NCBI GenBank assembly: GCA_963575745.1
Contig: CAUYUJ010000327.1
Location: 1-64,000, forward strand
Direction: 5' to 3'
DNA from: Prorocentrum cordatum
Lineage: Eukaryota
DNA length: 64,000 nt
The position numbers and the translations under genes were made by a program. The number at the start of each line of letters is the position of its first letter. Position 1 is the first letter of the stretch. The notes under the pieces are model-generated. The model searched no databases. It saw only the letters and a program-made list of their open reading frames with translations, and was not told the DNA's origin. Shown piece by piece: positions 43,464 through 51,092 of the stretch.

Positions 43464-44478
43464 TCCCCTCCTCCTCCTCCTCCTCCTCCTCCTCCTCCTC
43501 CTCCCCCCTCCTCCTCCTGGCTCCTCCTCCTCCCCCCTCCCCCGGGGGGCGGGCGCGGGACCGCCGGGCACGGGCACGCAGGCGCCCGGCGCCGCTGCGG
43601 TGCCAGCGGCGGCCTCCACCGACCGGGGGGGGGCGGGGGAGAGGAAACACACGGACACAATAAATCGTCGACTCCCACGAAAGTAGGGGAAAATATGGGA
43701 AGTGGGGGGGAGGACGAAAACCCAGAAACTATGTGGAAACATGTGGAATCCTGGGATTTGTGTATATATATATATACATACATACATACATACATACATA
43801 CATACATACATACATACATGCATACATGCATACATCTATATCTATATATGTGTGTGTGTACCCCTGGGCCCCTTTAGCTATGTGGCAGGAGGTCTGGCCA
43901 GCGCCTGGCCTCTCTGTGGCCAGGCAGGCTGCCCCTCCCGCACGTGGGGCCAGCACGGGTGGCCTCGGTATGTTCCGCCCGTGAGTCCAGCCCCGTGTGT
44001 TTCCACCTCCCCCTCCTCCTCCCACCCTCCTCCTCCTCCTCCTCCTCCTCCTCTCCTCTCCTTCTCCTCCTCCTCCCACCCTCCTCCTCCTTCTCTCACT
44101 CTCCTCCTCCTCCTCCTCCTCCTCCTCCTCCTCCTCCCTCCTCCTCCTCCTCCTCCTCCTCCTTCCCTCCCACCATCCTCCCACCCTCCTCCTCCTTCTC
44201 CCACTCTCCTCCTTCTCCTCCTCCTCCCTCCTCCTCCTCCTCCTCCTCCTCCTCCTCCTCCTCCTCCTCCACCTTCTCCTTCTCCTTCTCCTTCTCCCAT
44301 TCTCCTCCTCCTCCTCCTCCTCCTCCTCCTCCTCCTCTCCTCCTCCTCCTCCTCCCTCCTCCTCCTCCTCCTCCTCCTCCTCCTCCTCCTCCTCCTCCTC
44401 CTGCTCCTCCTCCTCTTTTTTGACTGGGGGGCTCTTGGGGATGGGCCTCAGGACCACACATCACCTTGGCCAAACAGG

Positions 44479-47400
44479 TCAATCCTGCTCTCGCACGGGC
44501 TTTCCCGTGTACGGATTCTTACCGTCCAGGATTCGATCACGATAGAGCTTCCGCCACCGATGGGCGGCAATACCCTTCGTCAAGGGGCCCTCGCATTCCC
44601 GCAACAACTTCTGGGCTCGGGAACGGGCGAAAGCCCCACAAATTCGGCACACAGCATAACCCACCTTCTCGACCACTTCGTGTTCCCGAGGTGGGGGCGG
44701 GGGTGAAACCTGGGACCCAGACCCCCTCGCCTCCGCAGCCCTCTCAGCCGCGGCGGCACGGATCTGGTCCGTCACACACTCGCCGTGGACCAGGGCCTTG
44801 ACTTTCAAACAGGCCCTGCCTTTTGAAATGGTTCCCCCCCATCCAGGGCACAACTCCCGCTTGGCCATGCTGAGACGAGCGGCCACACGGACGAGGCGAG
44901 AGCACTCCAGACATTGCCATTTACCACCCTCTAGGAGCCTAAAACGGTGGGCCCGCTCAGGCGCGACTGCCAAAGGGCGGGCAATACGTTCGCTCCTCCG
45001 AGTCCGACCAGCAGGGGACGGCAGGCTCGTGGTGGTAGCTTTGGCTTCACTAAGATGCACACGGAAATATGCTGCATACTGTAACAGCCTCTTCTGCAAT
45101 TTAAGACACTTCTGGACCTGTTCCACCTTGCACTTTGGGGCGGCATAGGGGTCAGCTCCCTGTCTTGCACGAGCGTCCGCACACCTATTCATGTCATAGT
45201 GCACAAGACTCTCACCAGAAAGACAGGCCCTTTGGACCTTTGTCATGTGAGACTTAATCTTGACTACTTGAAGGGACTCTCCTGGGATGAGACACTGATC
45301 CTCCAGGGCATCCCAAACAAGCTTCCAAAGGTGCGCGGTCATCTGTTCGCTATTCACACAAAATTCTTTGCCCGCCAAGAGCCCCTGAACGACCTGCTTG
45401 CTATCTATCAGGAGCCCTACGAGCCCTACCGAATGCTTTACAGCCTGGTACACGGCCCAGATCTCACAGTGGGCCGACGTGGGCCTCGCAACTGGCACAG
45501 CACCGAACAATGACTGAGTCTCACTTTTCTTTTCAGCGCTCCAGGTGATGGCGGCGAAGCCTCCCGTGGAAACCTCCCCCACGTCGGGGGACAGGGCGCA
45601 TCCGTCCGTGGCCACCCAGCCCGACAGGACCATCTCCCCGTCAGGGTCGCCCCACTGGTACTCGTCGGGCGGCGTGGGCACCTGGTAGTCGGCCACGGGA
45701 TCCGCGATCAAGCCGCGAGCCCATTTCCAGAAGAGCGTGTCACCGCCTCTGCAGCCCTGCTCCTCCTTCGTGGCGGCCGTCTCGCCCAAATGCACCACGT
45801 CTCGAAAATTGTGCTTGAGATTCGGCTCCGTGAGCCCATCACGAATCGTGACACATACATCTGCATCACAAAGAAAATACACATGCCGCAAAGTGCCCTT
45901 CTTCTTGCCGCACAGAGGGCACAGAGGACTCGTGACCTGGCCGCGCTCGTAGCACACCGTCTGTACAGGGTAACCTCCTAGCGCGACCGTTCTGGCACTG
46001 TTGATGTGGTGTCTCGTCCAGGTCTCCGTGGGCTTGGAGCGCATGAGCTGCTTGACTGGCAACAGGAAGGGGGTGGGGCGGAGCGGCTGGCGCTCCTCAT
46101 CAGCGAGCGCCCAGTCCATGAGCTTCTTCTTTGCGACCGCCCTCTCTGCCGACCGCAGGATCTCGAGGGGGGCGACCTCGCGGATGTCCCACTTGCCGTG
46201 GACGCCGTCGAGGATGGTCCAGGCGTCCTCCATGTGCCACCCCAACTCGTGCACCGTCAGAATGGTGGCAGCCGCTGGCCCCCGCACCATCTTCCAGGCG
46301 TCGAACTTGGCGGGGCCATAGGTGAGAGCACGCTGCACCTTGGGCCACTGGCGGCCCCGCGCGTGGGCCATCTCCTTCCGTCTCTCGGGCTGGCCCCAGG
46401 CCTCGCGTAGCCATGCCCGAAGAGGGGCGAGCTTGAGCTGCTCGGCGCCGTCCGTCCTCGGCGCGATCGCCCAGCCCAACGTGCCCGAACGAAAGGTTCC
46501 AGCCCCCGCGCGCACAGCAGCTGTCTTGGCCATGAGGAACTTGAGGACGGCAGGAGGGGTGCCAGCGCAGGTCGCCCCATATGCAACTGACGCTTTGAGG
46601 CCTTGCTGCACCACAGGGCGTACCCTCACCCCTCGTCGCTTGAGGGCCGCCGCCTTGTGCCAGCGGCCTCGGGCAGTCTTGACCCGTCTGGCTCTGGTGG
46701 CCTTCTTCCGAGGGCCCTGGGGTTGGTAGTCCACGCCCAACCAGCGCTCGCTCTCGCCGTGCTGCAGGCCGATGTCCGCCATGGGCTGTGCCAGCTCCTG
46801 TGCCAAGGAGCCGTCGCTGGAGACGAACTTGGACTTGCCTCCCTCACCCTTCGAGACCTTGAGCTGCAGCAGCGACTCCAAGAGGCGGATGAGGGTGCGG
46901 GCCAGGTCGGGGAAGATCACCTTCAGCTGTGTGCTCCTGCCCACCATCCGCAGGGCTAGGTCGTCAACAAACTTCGTGATCTCCAGCTTGGCCCCTGGCC
47001 ATCGGGCCACCACGCCCAGGATCGGATACAGCACAATCTTCAGGAAGCGATTGGCATACTTCGACCCAGCGGGCAACCCCACGTAGGTGCAAATGGCGTC
47101 GGCGACGGCCTGGCCCTTTCGGACCGCCCGAGGGAAAGCGTACGACTCCAGAGAAAGGGCCAATACACTCATGGGTGCTTGCTGCACCATGCCGAGAATC
47201 CAAATCAAATTGAGCGCTACATATTCATACGCCTTCTCCAAATCCATCAAGGCGGTGAGGGACGCGAAGCAGGTACCTTCCAGGGCCTCGTCGTCCAGCA
47301 TCGCTCTCCAAACAGCATGCTCACTGCTGCGCCCTGGTGATGCCCAGTCGTAGGGCCTCACGTGTGCCCGCTCCCACCGCCGAATCAAGGGATCACGAAC

Positions 47401-49479
47401 AGCCTCCCAGATGCGCACTGGCGTGGGAAACAGGGTGATGGGCCTGCCGCCGCCGTCTTCCTTGGCGACCAGGAAAAGTATGGGCATGCGTATGGCCGTG
47501 GGCCATGAGCAGAGCCGCTCGCACAGCATGAGGATGTCCCCGAGGCTGGTCAAGGCCTCGTCACTGAGCCAGGCCAGGTGCCCGAAGTGCCAGCCGTCAA
47601 GCCCGAGCCCCGTCTTCCACTTGTAACTACGGCAGATTGCGCGCACCTGCATCGCGTCGATGTTGGGCAGCTCCTGCGCGTGGGCCATCCGTCGGGCCTG
47701 GACCTGAGCGTCCTGCCACAACTTGGTGTAGTCACCTGACCCAGCGCGCCAAATGCTGGCCCACTCCTGCGCCTCCTGATTGACCGCGAGCTGCGGGTCC
47801 GCTGGCAACTTCAGCTTCTTGGCCGACGAGATGGGCTCCTTCCACGCCTGCTCCCAGTGGCAAATGCGGTGCAGGTAGCCCCCTGAGCCTGGGAACTTTG
47901 CGCCCAGACGCTCGTAGAACCTTTTTGAGCGCTGCCGCATGAGGTGTTGCTCCCTGGTCTGGGCCCGCACCTTGGCGAACTGCTGCAGCGCGAAGATGGC
48001 CTGTGCGCCGATGAAGTGAGGCTCCACGTCGGCGAGGGTGCGCAGCGCTGGTAGGAACCCCGCGCTCCAGGGCTCCAGCTGGTCCCAGTGGTGCCTCGCC
48101 TGGAGCAGCTTCCTCCAGGCCCGTCTGAGCTGGCCTGTGACCTCCTCGTTGTAGGATCGAGGAGGCCCTCCTCCCGAGGTGGTAGCCTGGCCTGCTGGGG
48201 CCTCCGACTTGGCCTGGGGCACCGCTTGGCCCCGCAGGACGCAGCAGGCGAGTTGGCCAATCCAGGCCAGTTCCCCCGCGGCCCAACGCCAGGCCCTGGC
48301 AGGACCTCGATCAGCCACGGGGCTGTCATGCTTCGGAAGAAGCTGTCTCTGCACCACCTCGGGAGTCAAGCCTCGGCCTTCATACATGCGCGCCTCCGAC
48401 TCCGCCCAGCCGAACAGAGACCGAAGCTCGGCCTCAGCTGCAGAGCAGAACCCCCTCCAGCACTGGTCCAGGTGCTGCTGGGAGCCGTGGGGCAGGTCGA
48501 TCTTGGGGTAGCCCTGCGGGATCTCGGGCTGCCTGACAGGTGGCGGCCTGGTGATGGGGTGCTGCTTGGGGCCCTTGAGCACCTGGATCTGGTACGCGTG
48601 CCAGGGCTTGTCGGCGCGGATCCAAGTCGGCCTGTGTGGCCTGTAGGGCATGTTCTCGAAGGACCTCACTGGGCTAAAGATCACTGCCAGCCTCGCATCC
48701 ACCCAGAAGAAGTCGATGACCCGATCCTTGAATTCCTCCACGCCCCGCTTTACCACCTTGGACCTGCATGTGCCTCCTTCCCCTTGCCAGGCCAGAACTT
48801 GGCCCTTGGCCTCCTGGTTCCAGGGGCTGTCGAGGATGGCGTGCGGCTCGTTGTTGAAGTCACCCATGGCCACCCAGGGGATCCTCATCTGGCAGACCCA
48901 ATGCACGATGGTGTCCAACAGGGCCGCGTTTAGGGCCCAGGTGACAGGCTTGCCCGTGAACAAGTACACCGAGAAAAGAGCCACCCATCCAATGCCCTCG
49001 ACCTCGGTCATGCCCAAGCACAGCCTTCCTGCGGCGCCCGCGGGGGAGATGCCCCACGACACCCGGCCTGGCGCCAGGCTGAGGCTCATGCAGCGCGGTG
49101 TGATCAGCGCCACACCCGCGGAGTAGCCGCCCTCTGCCGTGCGCACGGCAGGCGCACCCACAACGCGCCAGCCCCGTCGCTCTTGCGCCGCTGCAGTGAC
49201 GTGGAACCACTCGGCGGGCTTCGCGTGCTCCTGCACCGCTATGACGGGGACGCCGCCGCTCTTGATGAGCTGGTCGATCTCCTCTTCCATGAACTCTTCG
49301 ACGCGAGCCAAGGAGAGATTGGCGTTGAAGGTGGCGGCGATGACGTGTCGGTCCCCTCGCCGCGTGCGTCGGCGCCTCTGAGGCTGCCCCGCTGGGTCAT
49401 CCCCAACGTGCTGCGACCTGCCCCCGAGGTAGGTGGACTGAAAAGTGTTGGGCACGACGGGCGGTGGCTGCCTGCCCAT
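44479..49479 (-). CDS. LINE ORF2 polyprotein: APE endonuclease, reverse transcriptase, CCHC zinc finger, RNase H, two C-terminal Cys/His fingers (start uncertain; frame is open up to the ATG at 50775)
   Basis: APE motifs TFNAN, VQEH, MGDFN, RVIDFFWV, RPH (~48620-49350); RT motifs GLDG, KEDGGGRPI, DLEKAYE, GLPAGS, FVDD (46960-46971), WLGV; CPLCG..H...C; RNase H ATDG, CEIWAV, IDS, IKSH, NRCAD (~45150-45625); WQCLEC and VCRIC. First in-frame ATG after the ORF1 stop is at 49479 (gccATGg), giving 1666 aa. Confidence 0.93.
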   Translation of the reverse strand: MGRQPPPVVPNTFQSTYLGGRSQHVGDDPAGQPQRRRRTRRGDRHVIAATFNANLSLARVEEFMEEEIDQLIKSGGVPVIAVQEHAKPAEWFHVTAAAQERRGWRVVGAPAVRTAEGGYSAGVALITPRCMSLSLAPGRVSWGISPAGAAGRLCLGMTEVEGIGWVALFSVYLFTGKPVTWALNAALLDTIVHWVCQMRIPWVAMGDFNNEPHAILDSPWNQEAKGQVLAWQGEGGTCRSKVVKRGVEEFKDRVIDFFWVDARLAVIFSPVRSFENMPYRPHRPTWIRADKPWHAYQIQVLKGPKQHPITRPPPVRQPEIPQGYPKIDLPHGSQQHLDQCWRGFCSAAEAELRSLFGWAESEARMYEGRGLTPEVVQRQLLPKHDSPVADRGPARAWRWAAGELAWIGQLACCVLRGQAVPQAKSEAPAGQATTSGGGPPRSYNEEVTGQLRRAWRKLLQARHHWDQLEPWSAGFLPALRTLADVEPHFIGAQAIFALQQFAKVRAQTREQHLMRQRSKRFYERLGAKFPGSGGYLHRICHWEQAWKEPISSAKKLKLPADPQLAVNQEAQEWASIWRAGSGDYTKLWQDAQVQARRMAHAQELPNIDAMQVRAICRSYKWKTGLGLDGWHFGHLAWLSDEALTSLGDILMLCERLCSWPTAIRMPILFLVAKEDGGGRPITLFPTPVRIWEAVRDPLIRRWERAHVRPYDWASPGRSSEHAVWRAMLDDEALEGTCFASLTALMDLEKAYEYVALNLIWILGMVQQAPMSVLALSLESYAFPRAVRKGQAVADAICTYVGLPAGSKYANRFLKIVLYPILGVVARWPGAKLEITKFVDDLALRMVGRSTQLKVIFPDLARTLIRLLESLLQLKVSKGEGGKSKFVSSDGSLAQELAQPMADIGLQHGESERWLGVDYQPQGPRKKATRARRVKTARGRWHKAAALKRRGVRVRPVVQQGLKASVAYGATCAGTPPAVLKFLMAKTAAVRAGAGTFRSGTLGWAIAPRTDGAEQLKLAPLRAWLREAWGQPERRKEMAHARGRQWPKVQRALTYGPAKFDAWKMVRGPAAATILTVHELGWHMEDAWTILDGVHGKWDIREVAPLEILRSAERAVAKKKLMDWALADEERQPLRPTPFLLPVKQLMRSKPTETWTRHHINSARTVALGGYPVQTVCYERGQVTSPLCPLCGKKKGTLRHVYFLCDADVCVTIRDGLTEPNLKHNFRDVVHLGETAATKEEQGCRGGDTLFWKWARGLIADPVADYQVPTPPDEYQWGDPDGEMVLSGWVATDGCALSPDVGEVSTGGFAAITWSAEKKSETQSLFGAVPVARPTSAHCEIWAVYQAVKHSVGLVGLLIDSKQVVQGLLAGKEFCVNSEQMTAHLWKLVWDALEDQCLIPGESLQVVKIKSHMTKVQRACLSGESLVHYDMNRCADARARQGADPYAAPKCKVEQVQKCLKLQKRLLQYAAYFRVHLSEAKATTTSLPSPAGRTRRSERIARPLAVAPERAHRFRLLEGGKWQCLECSRLVRVAARLSMAKRELCPGWGGTISKGRACLKVKALVHGECVTDQIRAAAAERAAEARGSGSQVSPPPPPREHEVVEKVGYAVCRICGAFARSRAQKLLRECEGPLTKGIAAHRWRKLYRDRILDGKNPYTGKPVREQD

Positions 49480-49642
49480 GGCCGCGGGCGCGCAGTAGCC
49501 GTCGCCCTGGCCAGCGTACGCGTCCCCGCCGCCCTCAGAGAAGCCACCCCCGTGCAGCTCCTCGTCGTAGAGGCCCTCACCCGTCCAGAACTGGCCGTCC
49601 CCGTAGGTGGTCCAGTCGATCAAGGGCGGGCCCGCTGGCCCA

Positions 49643-50791
49643 TCAAAGCGACGCCTGGGGAAGCGCCTCCTCGCCGTGGTGGTCGTAGAAGGAACCCAGC
49701 ACCGCCCGCTTGGCGGCTCGCTCCTCCTCGGGCAGCCCGCTGGGGTACTGGTCCACCAGCTCGTCTCGCTTGCGCTTCTGCTCCTCCACTGCGTCGCCGC
49801 CGCCATCGGCCGAGGCCTCAGCAGCAGGCCCCCCTGGGGGCGCGGCCGCCGCCGCTGCGCCAGGCCCCCCAGTAGGCGCGGCGGCCGCAGCAGCGGGAGC
49901 CCCTGAGGCCTGAGGGAGCTCCTTGACCAGCTTGAGCAAGCTCTGGAGGGACTCCACGAGTGGCTTGGGCACCGAGTCGCCGTCGCCCTCGGTGTCCCCC
50001 ACCAACTTCTCCAGGTTTGCCACGAGCTGGCTGATGACCGCCTGCCCGCAATGTGGGCTACCGCCGAGAGGACCCGCTGCCCCCACTGGGGCCTGCTCCT
50101 CCGCCACGACTCGCCTGGCCAATTGAGCCTTTTCCTCCTGCAGCTGCTCCAACTCCTTGCTGGCCGCCTCCTGCATGCGCTGTGCCTCCGCCAGGCGCTG
50201 CTGCAGCTCGGGCACGACCTCGTCGCGCTGGCGTGCGAGCTTGCGCTGCGCGGCGGCCATCTTGCCCTCGAGTGCCTGCAGCTGCAGGTGCAAAGGCTTG
50301 CCTGCCCGCTTCTGGGCGATGAGGTTCGCCCTCTCCGCCCGCTTGGCCTCGATGATGGAGCCGAGACTGGGGTCGGCGAGGGACTCCAGCGTGCCGATCG
50401 ACTTGTCGAGCACCGCGATGGGGTCGGGCTGCTCGGCTGCCTTGGACTTGAGCAGGTCAGTGCCAGCCCCGAAGTAGCCCCAAGCAGCGCCAGCAGTGCC
50501 GCGAGGAGCGGGGCCAGCCACGCCCTTGTCCTTGCCCTTGTTCTCCTTGCCCTTGCCCTTGGCCTTGCCCCCAGCTGGGGGGTCGGCCCTCTGCCACGGT
50601 CGCCGCACCGGTGAGGAGCGGGACGCACGCGTGATGGCCACCTGGATGTGCTTCGGCGCGGGGGCGAAGCACTGGCGGCACTGCATCTTGGTCGCGAAGT
50701 TACCTCCAGTGCCACAGTGTCCACACGTCCAGGGCTCGGCCCCCTGGGGCGAAGAAAGAAACTGATGCGACGCATCCTTCCACGGTGCCAT
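49643..50791 (-). CDS. LINE ORF1 (382 aa): RanBP2-type zinc finger, K/G-rich segment, coiled coil
   Basis: ATG at 50791 is the first ATG downstream of the SL; WTCGHCGTGGNFATKMQCRQC; GKAKGKGKENKGKDKG; heptad-like Q/E/L/A-rich stretch; high GC3; stop TGA at 49643-49645. Confidence 0.85.
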   Translation of the reverse strand: MAPWKDASHQFLSSPQGAEPWTCGHCGTGGNFATKMQCRQCFAPAPKHIQVAITRASRSSPVRRPWQRADPPAGGKAKGKGKENKGKDKGVAGPAPRGTAGAAWGYFGAGTDLLKSKAAEQPDPIAVLDKSIGTLESLADPSLGSIIEAKRAERANLIAQKRAGKPLHLQLQALEGKMAAAQRKLARQRDEVVPELQQRLAEAQRMQEAASKELEQLQEEKAQLARRVVAEEQAPVGAAGPLGGSPHCGQAVISQLVANLEKLVGDTEGDGDSVPKPLVESLQSLLKLVKELPQASGAPAAAAAAPTGGPGAAAAAAPPGGPAAEASADGGGDAVEEQKRKRDELVDQYPSGLPEEERAAKRAVLGSFYDHHGEEALPQASL

Positions 50792-50912: not shown

Positions 50913-50958
50913 GCCAGAATGTCTCCGTCCGCTGCTGACGCCTGGGCCACGCTACGGA
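50913..50958 (-). other. Decayed (relict) spliced-leader copies in the LINE 5' UTR
   Basis: TCCGTAGC-GTGGCCCAGG (50958-50941) directly follows the SL; CGGAGACATTCTGGC (50927-50913) matches CGTAGCCATTTTGGC at 12/15. Confidence 0.65.
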
Positions 50959-50980
50959 CTTGAGCCAAAATGGCTACGGC
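50959..50980 (-). other. Perfect dinoflagellate spliced leader (DinoSL) at the LINE 5' end
   Basis: Minus strand reads GCCGTAGCCATTTTGGCTCAAG, matching the consensus DCCGTAGCCATTTTGGCTCAAG; the first G may be shared with the TSD. Confidence 0.97.
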
Positions 50981-51061
50981 CTGCTCCTCCTCCTCCTTTT
51001 CCTCCTCCTCCTCCTCCTCCCACCCTCCTCCTCCTCCTCCTCCTGCTCCTCCTCCTCCTCG

Positions 51062-51092
<31 letters not shown>

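What the first reader, a model, noticed from the sequence alone, without database searches (positions are those of the whole stretch)
49620..49670. prfB-like +1 shifty stop (CTT TGA) at the ORF1/ORF2 junction
Seen: ORF1 ends GCG TCG CTT TGA; the ORF2 frame here is CGC TTT GAT GGG, exactly +1. The ~55 codons from there to the first ATG (49479) are open and GC3-rich like real coding sequence (ACC TAC GGG GAC GGC CAG TTC TGG). Known: CUU-UGA is the +1 frameshift site of bacterial prfB (peptidyl-tRNA slips CUU to UUU), and Ty1 shifts +1 at CUU-AGG. Inference: ORF2 may be made as an ORF1-ORF2 fusion by +1 frameshifting, which would be unusual for a LINE. Re-initiation at 49479 is the alternative.
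Basis: partly seen in the sequence, partly recalled or inferred. Interest (0 to 1): 0.7.

Follow-up and report, generated by a model that had tools for sequence, protein, structure and literature searches.

The report
Shifty stop between two LINE genes
In an intact jumping gene of a dinoflagellate, the first gene ends in a six-letter sequence known to make ribosomes slip one base forward into the frame of the second gene, but two other ways of reading the second gene fit the sequence nearly as well.

Summary
On the minus strand ORF1 (50791..49643) ends GCG TCG CTT TGA. The endonuclease/RT frame is exactly +1. The 55 codons between that stop and ATG 49479 carry a significant coding periodicity in the ORF2 frame.

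The host is Prorocentrum cordatum or a close relative. The element is a full-length LINE-like copy that begins with the 22-nt spliced leader and is flanked by a target duplication.

Every close copy I could see needs the same +1 change, with no indel, joint or consistent intron at the junction. The codons upstream of ATG 49479 are as conserved as those just after it. So ORF2 decoding very probably starts at or before the ORF1 stop.

How it starts is open:
- A +1 slip at CUU-UGA giving an ORF1-ORF2 fusion is my best single reading (about 0.38).
- The ORF2 frame is also stop-free across all of ORF1 and opens with the second AUG of the mRNA (50775), so leaky scanning into a 2098-codon overlapping ORF is possible (about 0.25).
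- AUG-independent or near-stop reinitiation, as in L1, is also possible (about 0.22).

The motif is not kept in ORF1 relatives at 45-48% identity. A sister family seems to have ORF1 and ORF2 in one frame.

The parts
50981..51086 (-). 5' flank: (GGA)n microsatellite. Its last 15 nt, GAGGAGGAGGAGCAG (50995-50981), are one copy of the target-site duplication.
   Evidence: sequence; flank comparison
50959..50980 (-). Complete 22-nt dinoflagellate spliced leader at the exact 5' end of the element.
   Evidence: 21/21 match, 0.01 expected from shuffles; preceded by G. The 3' 15 letters agree with the DinoRL printed in PMC12014239 (passages).
50941..50958 (-). TCCGTAGCGTGGCCCAGG, possibly a decayed older leader relic. 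It starts like the leader and then diverges.
   Evidence: the reading is an inference
49643..50791 (-). ORF1, 382 codons plus TGA. It has a RanBP2-like zinc finger (weak), a Lys-rich stretch, a coiled-coil region and a C-terminal KRKRDEL...GSFYDHHG block. Its ATG is the first ATG of the mRNA, in the context tgtttgATGgc.
   Evidence: Pfam PF00641, E 0.0076, below its cut-off; 23 homologues
50773..50775 (-). Second ATG of the mRNA, 16 nt after the first, in the ORF2 frame, in the context ggaaggATGcg. It opens the 2098-codon ORF.
49642..49648 (-). CTT TGA T: the candidate +1 shift site. Last sense codon CTT, ORF1 stop TGA, then T.
   Evidence: The reading through it with a four-letter step gives ...PQASL-DGPAGPP....
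49620..49643 (-). ATG overlapping the ORF1 stop (TGATG). It is in the third frame and gives a 7-codon mini-ORF (MGQRARP*) ending at TGA 49622-49620.
49628..49641 (-). Small GC hairpin GGGCC-AGCG-GGCCC one base after the stop. Not significant against shuffles.
   Evidence: z -0.95; z +0.66
49480..49644 (-). 55 junction codons in the ORF2 frame with no ATG (DGPAGPPLIDWTTYGDGQFW...CAPAA). Gly-rich linker with coding periodicity.
44479..49479 (-). ORF2 counted from its first junction-downstream ATG: 1666 codons with endonuclease (QEH...GDFN...RPH), RT (GGGRPI...FVDD), a zinc-binding block, RNase H and a C-terminal Cys-rich tail. Intact.
   Evidence: Relatives P0007 and P0008 match Pfam RVT_1, RNase_H and Exo_endo_phos; P0003 itself matches none.
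44479..50775 (-). The whole open ORF2 frame, 2098 codons. Its first 377 codons overlap ORF1 in the +1 frame, are Arg/Ser/Pro-rich, and hold one membrane-helix-like segment at residues 86-108.
44401..44478 (-). 3' UTR (57 nt, 44478-44422), A6 (44421-44416) and the second copy of the 15-nt duplication GAGGAGGAGGAGCAG (44415-44401). (GGA)n follows, down to about 44010.

Best explanation
What the element is. This is a full-length, apparently intact LINE-like retrotransposon of Prorocentrum cordatum or a close relative. It was copied from a spliced-leader-capped bicistronic mRNA.

What is shown. ORF2 has no start of its own at the place where its coding signal begins. That signal starts directly at the ORF1 stop.

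What I infer as most likely. A small share of ribosomes that reach the end of ORF1, with peptidyl-tRNA-Leu on CUU and the poorly read UGA in the A site, slip one base forward (CUU to UUU). They then read GAU and continue, which makes an ORF1-linker-ORF2 fusion (...ALPQASL-DGPAGPP...). All other ribosomes terminate and make ORF1 protein alone. This would be a Gag/Gag-Pol-like ratio device.

What is speculation. The coiled coil of ORF1 would then carry the fusion into the ORF1 particle on its own RNA. The site looks like what one extra T in a T-run of an ancestral in-frame ORF1-ORF2 would create.
For: (1) Exact CTT TGA T at the ORF1 end. It is the only CTTTGA in the element, and CTT is 19 of 2048 codons.

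(2) Coding periodicity and codon usage switch to the +1 frame at the stop, 55 codons before any ATG.

(3) Those codons are as conserved among six other copies as the 44 codons after ATG 49479. For example, P0004 has 31/37 against 32/44, and P0038 has 38/55 against 30/44. The endonuclease is 89-94% identical.

(4) The +1 phase is kept in close copies. Of 165 contigs laid, one indel is listed and no joint. A contig 84% alike crosses the junction without a gap. No variant row falls on 49643-49648 among the 40 of 235 rows shown. The contigs that carry the neighbouring variants at 49649 and 49651 would have been listed with equal support had they differed there.

(5) P0038 reads L-F-D-G-P-A-G-P-P in the ORF2 frame, which fits CTC TTT GAT with the 49649 variant.

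(6) The sister family (P0006 and P0043, 38% identical in ORF2) is modelled as ORF1 and ORF2 in one frame. P0043 reads through both stretches that P0006 skips, so a fusion protein seems viable in this group.

(7) The leader at the 5' end shows that the copied RNA carried both ORFs on one capped message.
Against: - No fusion product, ribosome footprint or RNA run was available.
- The motif could be seen only in close copies, where six unchanged letters mean little. The variant table was also cut, with 195 rows not shown.
- ORF1 relatives at 45-48% identity do not end in Leu-stop at this place.
- More distant stand-alone ORF1 homologues end in A, G, G, K, K and L.
- No significant structure follows the site.
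- +1 frameshifting has no precedent in LINEs that I know of. Passages of the Atkins review (PMC5009743) mention HeT-A and TART only, and the search listed no LINE case.
- The ORF2 frame is stop-free over all of ORF1 and opens with the second AUG of the mRNA. A frameshift does not need that.
- One subfamily (P0005, P0038) has an ATG seven codons after the stop.
- The in-frame state of the sister family rests on gene models whose DNA I could not see.
Confidence: 0.38

Rival explanations
1. Leaky scanning into an overlapping giant ORF. Some 40S subunits pass the first AUG (50791, with T at -3) and start at the second AUG 16 nt downstream (50775, with A at -3). This AUG is in the ORF2 frame, and that frame is open for 2098 codons. 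ORF2 would then be made with a 432-residue N-terminal extension, of which the first 377 codons are read across ORF1 in the +1 frame. This resembles the nested movement-protein and replicase ORFs of tymoviruses (recalled).
For: - The ORF2 frame has 0 stops over the 382 ORF1 codons. The expectation is 5.5 by codon shuffle (P of zero = 0.0022) and 3.35-5.07 by synonymous resampling (P = 0.003-0.0013).
- All 35 xTG codons are followed by G or C, never by A.
- ATG 50775 is the second of only eight ATGs between the leader and 49400, and it has the better context.
- It is made by one of only 2 GAT among 16 Asp codons of ORF1.
- It explains the coding junction without any recoding.
- Three of the 22 shown variants in ORF1 are TTG>CTG, which is synonymous in both frames.
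Against: - The off-frame stop deficit is partly general. The ORF1 +2 frame has 4 stops against 8.75-10.45 expected, and the ORF2 +1 frame has 40 against 52.5. A conservative p is therefore nearer 0.1-0.2 (my estimate).
- 14 of 22 shown variants change the alternative-frame residue, often radically, so the extension shows no protein-level constraint.
- The extension is Arg/Ser/Pro-rich (K+R 78, D+E 6). It holds the only membrane-helix-like segment of the whole 2098-residue protein, which might misroute an enzyme that must reach the nucleus (the consequence is inferred).
- It leaves CTT TGA as a coincidence.
- Conservation of the ATG and of the open frame in other copies could not be tested.
Confidence: 0.25
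2. Termination-reinitiation, or start-codon-independent initiation close to the ORF1 stop. This is what has been reported for human L1 and for SART1 (recalled: Alisch 2006, Kojima 2005). Ribosomes finish ORF1 and resume within a few codons in the ORF2 frame, at TTG 49623, at the ATG that the P0005/P0038 subfamily has there, or at no special codon. They make a separate ORF2 protein with the Gly-rich N-terminal linker.
For: - This is the only route with LINE precedent. Passages of PMC5009743 say that L1 ORF2 expression does not use bypassing.
- P0005 and P0038 read M-L-D-W where the window has L-I-D-W, which places an ATG 19 nt after the stop.
- The ORF1 stop overlaps an ATG (TGATG).
- It explains coding periodicity from about codon 8 of the junction onward.
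Against: - The overlapping ATG is in the wrong frame and gives seven codons.
- The in-frame ATG at 49623 is not among the well-supported variants of the contigs, although its neighbour 49620 is. It therefore seems confined to one sublineage (an inference from a cut table).
- Both CTT TGA and the stop-free +1 frame would be coincidences.
- Reinitiation after a 382-codon ORF is inefficient in general (established knowledge).
Confidence: 0.22
3. There is no working solution. The +1 state is a frameshift lesion of a master copy, and the family spread by using proteins of in-frame relatives in trans. Alternatively, ORF2 starts at ATG 49479 and the upstream codons are a fading relic.
For: - The linker on both sides of ATG 49479 evolves fast (62-84% identity against 89-94% in the endonuclease).
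- Met at 49479 is kept in 5 of 6 other copies.
- LINE copies are often dead (established knowledge).
Against: - ORF1 (382 codons) and ORF2 (1666 codons) are both intact here.
- The shown variants in ORF1 are 13 synonymous to 9 non-synonymous, which indicates selection in the lineage.
- The phase is shared by copies down to 84% likeness.
- Periodicity upstream of ATG 49479 is significant.
- Seven ATGs precede 49479 on the mRNA, so scanning cannot reach it.
Confidence: 0.1
4. RNA processing joins or separates the ORFs. Either a short non-canonical intron of 3n+1 bases removes the stop, or an internal spliced-leader acceptor gives a separate ORF2 mRNA.
For: - Public gene models place small introns here.
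- The P. cordatum annotation allowed non-canonical splice sites (PMC10666404, passages).
- Dinoflagellates resolve polycistrons by trans-splicing (same paper).
Against: - The three models use three different introns.
- This copy derives from a mature leader-capped RNA that still holds the junction.
- No joint, and no leader-like loose end, was shown in the 165 contigs laid; the loose-end table was cut, with 13 rows not shown.
Confidence: 0.04

Closest known systems
Bacterial prfB (release factor 2) +1 frameshift site CUU UGA C
   Same: Same hexamer. Peptidyl-tRNA-Leu on CUU can re-pair on UUU while a slowly read UGA waits in the A site, and the product continues in the +1 frame (established knowledge, recalled).
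   Different: prfB is bacterial, is stimulated by a Shine-Dalgarno-like contact with 16S rRNA and is autoregulated by RF2. Here the host is a eukaryote, no stimulator was found, and the base after UGA is U.
Antizyme (OAZ) +1 frameshift UCC UGA U
   Same: It is a eukaryotic +1 shift at a UGA followed by U. The next codon read is GAU in both (recalled for antizyme; for this site).
   Different: Antizyme has a different P-site codon, senses polyamines and has a 3' pseudoknot and a 5' element. None of these was shown here.
Ty1 +1 frameshift CUU AGG C (Gag-Pol of a yeast LTR retrotransposon)
   Same: A retroelement makes its polymerase as a fusion through a +1 slip of tRNA-Leu on CUU.
   Different: Ty1 pauses on a rare AGG codon rather than a stop, and it is an LTR element. 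I found no LINE reported with +1 frameshifting (search listings, and passages of PMC5009743).
Human L1 and Bombyx SART1 ORF2 translation (termination-reinitiation)
   Same: Bicistronic LINE mRNA, with ORF2 made in small amounts without a conventional start. SART1 uses a stop-start overlap, and a TGATG is present here (recalled).
   Different: Here the overlapping ATG is out of frame. ORF2-frame coding begins at the stop with no spacer, and the stop sits in a slippery context.
Tymovirus nested ORFs reached by leaky scanning
   Same: Two AUGs a few bases apart in different frames. The first is in the weaker context, and one ORF lies wholly inside the other (recalled; for this element).
   Different: That case is an RNA virus, and both of its overlapping proteins are known to be functional. 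Here the overlapping part shows no protein-level constraint.
Dinoflagellate retrogenes with relict spliced leader
   Same: The genomic copy starts with the leader, so it was copied from a mature mRNA (PMC12014239 and PMC6050394 abstracts and passages).
   Different: Here the copied message is the retrotransposon's own. Earlier notes of this scan report the same for other LINE families of this genome.

Membership tests
prfB/Ty1-type +1 programmed frameshift site | P-site codon whose tRNA can re-pair one base forward (CUU followed by U) | tested here: met
   CTT T at 49648-49645. The re-pairing rule is recalled.
prfB/Ty1-type +1 programmed frameshift site | Slowly decoded A-site codon (a stop or a rare codon) in the zero frame | tested here: met
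   TGA at 49645-49643 ends ORF1.
prfB/Ty1-type +1 programmed frameshift site | The +1 frame downstream is open and coding from the site onward | tested here: met
   Periodicity p=0.0012, and the log-odds switch at the stop. There is no stop until 44481.
prfB/Ty1-type +1 programmed frameshift site | Site and phase conserved among relatives | tested here: inconclusive
   The phase is kept in all close copies seen. The motif is probably kept in them, but the table was cut. The ORF1 ends differ at 45-48% identity, and the sister family seems in frame. No DNA of relatives could be fetched.
prfB/Ty1-type +1 programmed frameshift site | Stimulatory element (rRNA pairing, pseudoknot or similar) | tested here: not met
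   Folds of 90 and 221 nt give z -0.95 and +0.66. Pseudoknots were not modelled.
prfB/Ty1-type +1 programmed frameshift site | Trans-frame protein product observed | not testable with these tools
   No RNA run was listed, and no proteome search is on offer.
APE-type non-LTR retrotransposon (LINE) | Endonuclease, reverse transcriptase (and here RNase H) in one ORF | tested here: met
   P0003 has no Pfam hit. It is, however, homologous to P0007 (E 8.5e-68) and P0008 (5.8e-53). P0007 matches RVT_1 and RNase_H above their cut-offs; P0008 matches RVT_1 and Exo_endo_phos below theirs. Catalytic-type columns are invariant in the alignment.
APE-type non-LTR retrotransposon (LINE) | Target-site duplication, 3' A-run, many copies | tested here: met
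   15-nt duplication and A6. 131 contigs of run X1 lie on 1.2 kb. Seven further P. cordatum gene models lie in the two ORF2 clusters at 90% identity.
Termination-reinitiation (SART1/calicivirus type) | Start codon of the downstream ORF overlapping or next to the upstream stop, in the downstream frame | tested here: not met
   TGATG is present, but its ATG is in the third frame. An in-frame ATG 19 nt downstream is found only in the P0005/P0038 copies.
Leaky-scanning nested ORFs | Weak first AUG, nearby second AUG in another frame with a better context, no AUG between them, long open overlapping frame | tested here: met
   Whether dinoflagellate ribosomes follow these context rules is not known to me.
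Leaky-scanning nested ORFs | Second AUG and open frame conserved; overlapping product constrained | tested here: inconclusive
The shown variants give no protein-level constraint and create no stop.

The most novel reading that the evidence does not exclude
A non-LTR retrotransposon that makes its endonuclease/RT as a Gag-Pol-like ORF1-ORF2 fusion by +1 ribosomal frameshifting at CUU-UGA. It would have arisen when one extra T split an ancestral single ORF. This would be the first +1 frameshift reported for a LINE and the first recoding site in a dinoflagellate nuclear message. The same mRNA may also carry a second, tymovirus-like route through an AUG 16 nt after the first, which would nest ORF1 inside a 2098-codon ORF.
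Probability: 0.38. Interest if true: 0.78.

Novelty: new variant of a known kind. Interest (0 to 1): 0.55.

Why it matters
How LINEs translate their second ORF is an old and only partly solved question. LTR elements and retroviruses set their Gag:Pol ratio by frameshifting, but no LINE is known to do so.

This element offers a clean test case:
- It is intact and multi-copy.
- Its mRNA 5' end is known exactly, because the spliced leader is preserved in the DNA.
- ORF2 coding starts at the ORF1 stop without a start codon.
- The three candidate routes predict three different N-termini of the ORF2 protein. One proteomic or reporter experiment would therefore decide among them.

It also bears on translation rules in dinoflagellates, which are almost unexplored. 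And it shows that public gene models of this genome turn such elements into chimeric 'genes' with invented introns.

Tried and rejected
Whole genome and DNA of relatives:
- Whole genome of the window: not held.
- Other copies in the window: none by blastn or tblastn.
- DNA of relatives: metagenome contigs with an ORF1 alignment and with an ORF2 N-terminal alignment, viral contigs and genome contigs. All four returned nothing. A first ORF1 alignment was too divergent to use.

Protein searches:
- ORF1 at near lengths: no hit.
- The frameshift-fusion peptide P0033, residues 30-160: no hit among 27 candidates.
- An exhaustive phmmer search with ORF1 worked.

Families and structures:
- Pfam on ORF2: only zf-RVT at E 0.17.
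- PDB by sequence: nothing of use.
- PDB by profile: only weak RNase H matches, E 0.13 and worse.

Sequencing runs:
- No RNA holder was listed.
- Only DNA contigs could be laid. So neither a complete view of 49643-49648 nor a dN/dS estimate was possible.

Other checks:
- RNA structure after the stop: not significant.
- Earlier notes of this scan: none on this place or sequence. Nothing on frameshifting in this genome.
- Literature: no paper on ORF1/ORF2 decoding in dinoflagellate LINEs, or on +1 frameshifting in LINEs, in the listings. One search failed on term syntax.

Rejected readings:
- Leaky scanning to ATG 49479, because seven ATGs lie before it.
- Transcriptional slippage, because a run of three T is too short (established knowledge).
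- RNA editing, because it substitutes bases and cannot change the frame.
Full report
**What is at the coordinates**

The feature lies on the minus strand. One search shows ...GAG GCG CTT CCC CAG GCG TCG CTT TGA TGG GCC AGC GGG..., with CTT at 49648-49646 and TGA at 49645-49643. In this frame ORF1 ends ...EEALPQASL*. One base further, the frame reads CGC TTT GAT GGG CCA and runs on without a stop to TGA 44481-44479.

Two corrections are needed:
- The ORF listing starts ORF1 at a TTG that lies inside the spliced leader. The real ORF1 is ATG 50791 to 49643, 382 codons, and its ATG is the first ATG of the message. The model P0037 of another copy also begins MAPWKDAS.
- The ORF2 frame is open upstream of the ORF1 stop as well, back to ATG 50775, giving 2098 codons in all. 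The mere openness of the 55 junction codons therefore says nothing.

**What the element is**

The best protein matches are unnamed gene models of Prorocentrum cordatum: 93% and 87% identity over 84-87% of ORF2, and one at 38%. GC is about 60-68%.

ORF2 itself matches no Pfam family, and PDB sequences give nothing of use. It is, however, homologous to P0007 (E 8.5e-68) and P0008 (5.8e-53). P0007 matches RVT_1 and RNase_H above Pfam's cut-offs. P0008 matches RVT_1 and the endonuclease/exonuclease/phosphatase family below them. The five-sequence alignment keeps the expected catalytic-type columns.

ORF1 has a weak RanBP2-type zinc-finger match. It has 23 homologues in an exhaustive search of 1.84 billion representatives.

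The copy begins with a perfect 22-nt dinoflagellate spliced leader at 50980-50959 (21/21 of a recalled motif, 0.01 expected by chance). Its last 15 letters are printed as the leader relic in PMC12014239 (passages). The 3' end is a short UTR and A6. The 15 nt GAGGAGGAGGAGCAG flank both ends inside a (GGA)n microsatellite.

This is therefore a full-length cDNA copy of a leader-capped mRNA that carried ORF1 and ORF2 together. Earlier notes of this scan report leader-capped LINEs of other families in the same genome. I confirmed the feature for this element only.

**Is the junction coding?**

Yes, by three measures.
- GC content by ORF2 codon position in 49644-49480 is 40/55, 32/55 and 49/55 (chi-square p=0.0012; position 3 against position 2, p=0.0004). 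This is the same phase pattern as the ORF2 body.
- A codon-usage log-odds trained on the ORF2 body favours the ORF1 frame down to about 49690 and the ORF2 frame from about 49624 on. The signal there is stronger than just after ATG 49479.
- In six other copies the junction residues are as conserved as the 44 residues that follow ATG 49479. P0004 has 31/37 against 32/44. P0037 has 30/36 against 34/44. P0038 has 38/55 against 30/44. P0005 has 30/48 against 28/44. Both regions are less conserved than the endonuclease (89-94%).

ATG 49479 is therefore not a boundary. Seven ATGs precede it on the message.

**Is the arrangement a lesion of this copy?**

No. I laid the contigs of one organismal DNA run and three marine metagenomes on 49100-50300 at 80% likeness or more. 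That gave 131+14+7+13 contigs. One indel is listed in 1201 bases (49828, one contig of low depth), and no joint is listed. A 612-nt contig with 96 differences spans 49325-49936 with no gap.

Three public gene models of other copies pass from the ORF1 frame to the ORF2 frame by three different small predicted introns:
- P0038: ...EEERAAKR|LFDGPAGPPMLDW
- P0037: ...AAKRA|FWTSEGLY
- P0035: ...HHGEAALP|KDGQFW

This is what a gene predictor that allows non-canonical splice sites would do to a real frame change (PMC10666404, passages; models). It argues against one true intron.

Near the stop, the shown variants are 49649 and 49651 (TCG to CCT, Ser to Pro) in two of about five X1 contigs and in the X2 contig, and 49661 (CTT to CTC) in all contigs. 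No row falls on 49643-49648. Only 40 of 235 variant rows were shown, so conservation of CTT TGA is probable, not proven. P0038's L-F-D fits CTC TTT GAT with the 49649 variant. Six unchanged letters in copies 84-99% alike carry little weight in any case.

**More distant relatives**

I could obtain no DNA of them. Four collection scans found nothing.

From proteins alone, ORF1 homologues at 45-48% identity keep the C-terminal block (KRKRD.L...LP...R....FY.HHG) and then differ. P0013 ends ...GLRMPSVEPRTRA. P0010 runs on as ...ALPRLAACPSSRRRRRPSPRSD.

The 38% sister family (P0006, P0043) is modelled with the ORF1-like zinc finger and coiled coil joined in frame to ORF2. P0043 reads through, in frame, both stretches (29 and 16 residues) that P0006 skips. 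I take this as fair but indirect evidence for a single ORF there. If true, the phase varies among relatives. It would also mean that an ORF1-ORF2 fusion protein is a workable product in this group.

**A rival I did not expect**

The ORF2 frame has no stop over the whole of ORF1. Codon shuffles expect 5.5 stops (P of none = 0.0022). Synonymous resampling expects 3.35-5.07 (P = 0.003-0.0013). All 35 xTG codons are followed by G or C, never A.

That frame opens with ATG 50775. This is the second ATG of the message, 16 nt after the first. It has A at -3, where the first ATG has T. It is formed by one of only two GAT among 16 Asp codons of ORF1. By the scanning model, ribosomes that miss the first AUG would translate a 2098-residue protein ending in ORF2.

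Several results count against this route being the working one:
- Off-frame stops are somewhat scarce in general. The ORF1 +2 frame has 4 against 8.75-10.45 expected. The ORF2 +1 frame has 40 against 52.5. A cautious p is thus nearer 0.1-0.2 (my scaling).
- 14 of 22 shown variants in ORF1 change the alternative-frame residue, although none creates a stop and three are synonymous in both frames.
- The 377-residue overlap is Arg/Ser/Pro-rich. It contains the only membrane-helix-like segment of the whole protein.

**Reinitiation**

The ORF1 stop overlaps an ATG (TGATG). That ATG is in the third frame and gives seven codons. The P0005/P0038 sublineage has an in-frame ATG 19 nt after the stop. The contig table lists its neighbour 49620 but not 49623, so this ATG seems confined to that sublineage. 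L1-type start-codon-independent reinitiation (recalled) would fit the coding junction. It would leave both CTT TGA and the open +1 frame as accidents.

**Weighing**

What is shown:
- The sequence, the phase, the coding nature of the junction and its persistence in the family.
- The single capped bicistronic RNA.

What is inferred:
- The route by which ORF2 is decoded.

The exact slippery stop has a chance of roughly 0.4% for the hexamer, by my estimate. Its seamless reading (...ASL-DGPAGPP...) gives the same architecture as the sister family's apparent single ORF. On these grounds I rank the +1 slip first at 0.38. Leaky scanning follows at 0.25, reinitiation at 0.22, a non-working or relic state at 0.10 and RNA processing at 0.04. 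Two routes may act together.

No stimulatory structure was found (z -0.95 and +0.66). A LINE needs very little ORF2 protein, so an unstimulated site could suffice (inference).

**Comparison with the known**

The site works like prfB, Ty1 and antizyme sites on paper. It meets the three sequence-level criteria. It fails the stimulator criterion and is inconclusive on conservation, and the product criterion cannot be tested here.

I found no report of +1 frameshifting in a LINE, nor of ORF2 decoding in dinoflagellate LINEs. This rests on the listings and on passages of PMC5009743, PMC12014239, PMC11453091 and PMC10666404. I did not read any of these papers in full, and I opened no supplements.

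Noticed in passing
window 50941-51000 and 44401-44421 (minus strand): The element starts with a complete 22-nt spliced leader, followed by a possible decayed older relic (TCCGTAGCGTGGCCCAGG). It is enclosed by a 15-nt target duplication inside a (GGA)n microsatellite, so it is a LINE copied from its own leader-capped mRNA.
   Followed up: partly
window 44479-50775 (minus strand): The ORF2 frame is one open 2098-codon ORF that starts at the second ATG of the mRNA and contains all of ORF1 in another frame. It has zero stops where 3.35-5.5 are expected.
   Followed up: yes
window ~50450-50520 (minus strand; residues 86-108 of the 2098-residue frame): The alternative-frame reading of the Lys/Gly-rich part of ORF1 gives a 19-22-residue Leu/Ala-rich, membrane-helix-like segment after an Arg-rich stretch. 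The same segment was used as an exon in the public model P0038.
   Followed up: partly
proteins P0007 (about residue 40) and P0008 (about residue 20): Distant relatives of ORF2 carry RIGEA(I/H)NPGP near the N-terminus. This is a 2A-like ribosome-skipping motif of the kind reported in other LINEs (recalled), so recoding may be common in this group. This element has no NPGP.
   Followed up: no
proteins P0006, P0043, P0011, P0037, P0038 (public P. cordatum gene models): The models of these elements are chimeric. P0043 has a calmodulin-like N-terminus and P0038 has an alternative-frame exon. P0011 joins the ORF1 coiled coil straight to the endonuclease. Small introns of differing position bridge the frame change in P0035, P0037 and P0038.
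   Followed up: partly
proteins P0006 / P0043: A sister family, 38% identical in ORF2, appears to encode ORF1 and ORF2 as one frame with a much shorter linker: about 48-64 residues against about 225 here.
   Followed up: partly
window 50005, 50122, 50152: At three sites the window has TTG where all laid contigs have CTG. These changes are synonymous in both the ORF1 frame and the ORF2 frame.
   Followed up: partly
proteins P0039-P0041, P0044: Short fragments of this ORF2 family are filed in a transcriptome set labelled as a Pyramimonas strain. This suggests that the element is transcribed somewhere and that the set holds dinoflagellate material.
   Followed up: no
window 44479-49479: Pfam-A does not recognise the reverse transcriptase, endonuclease or RNase H of this intact 1666-residue ORF2. 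Homology is visible only through intermediate relatives.
   Followed up: partly
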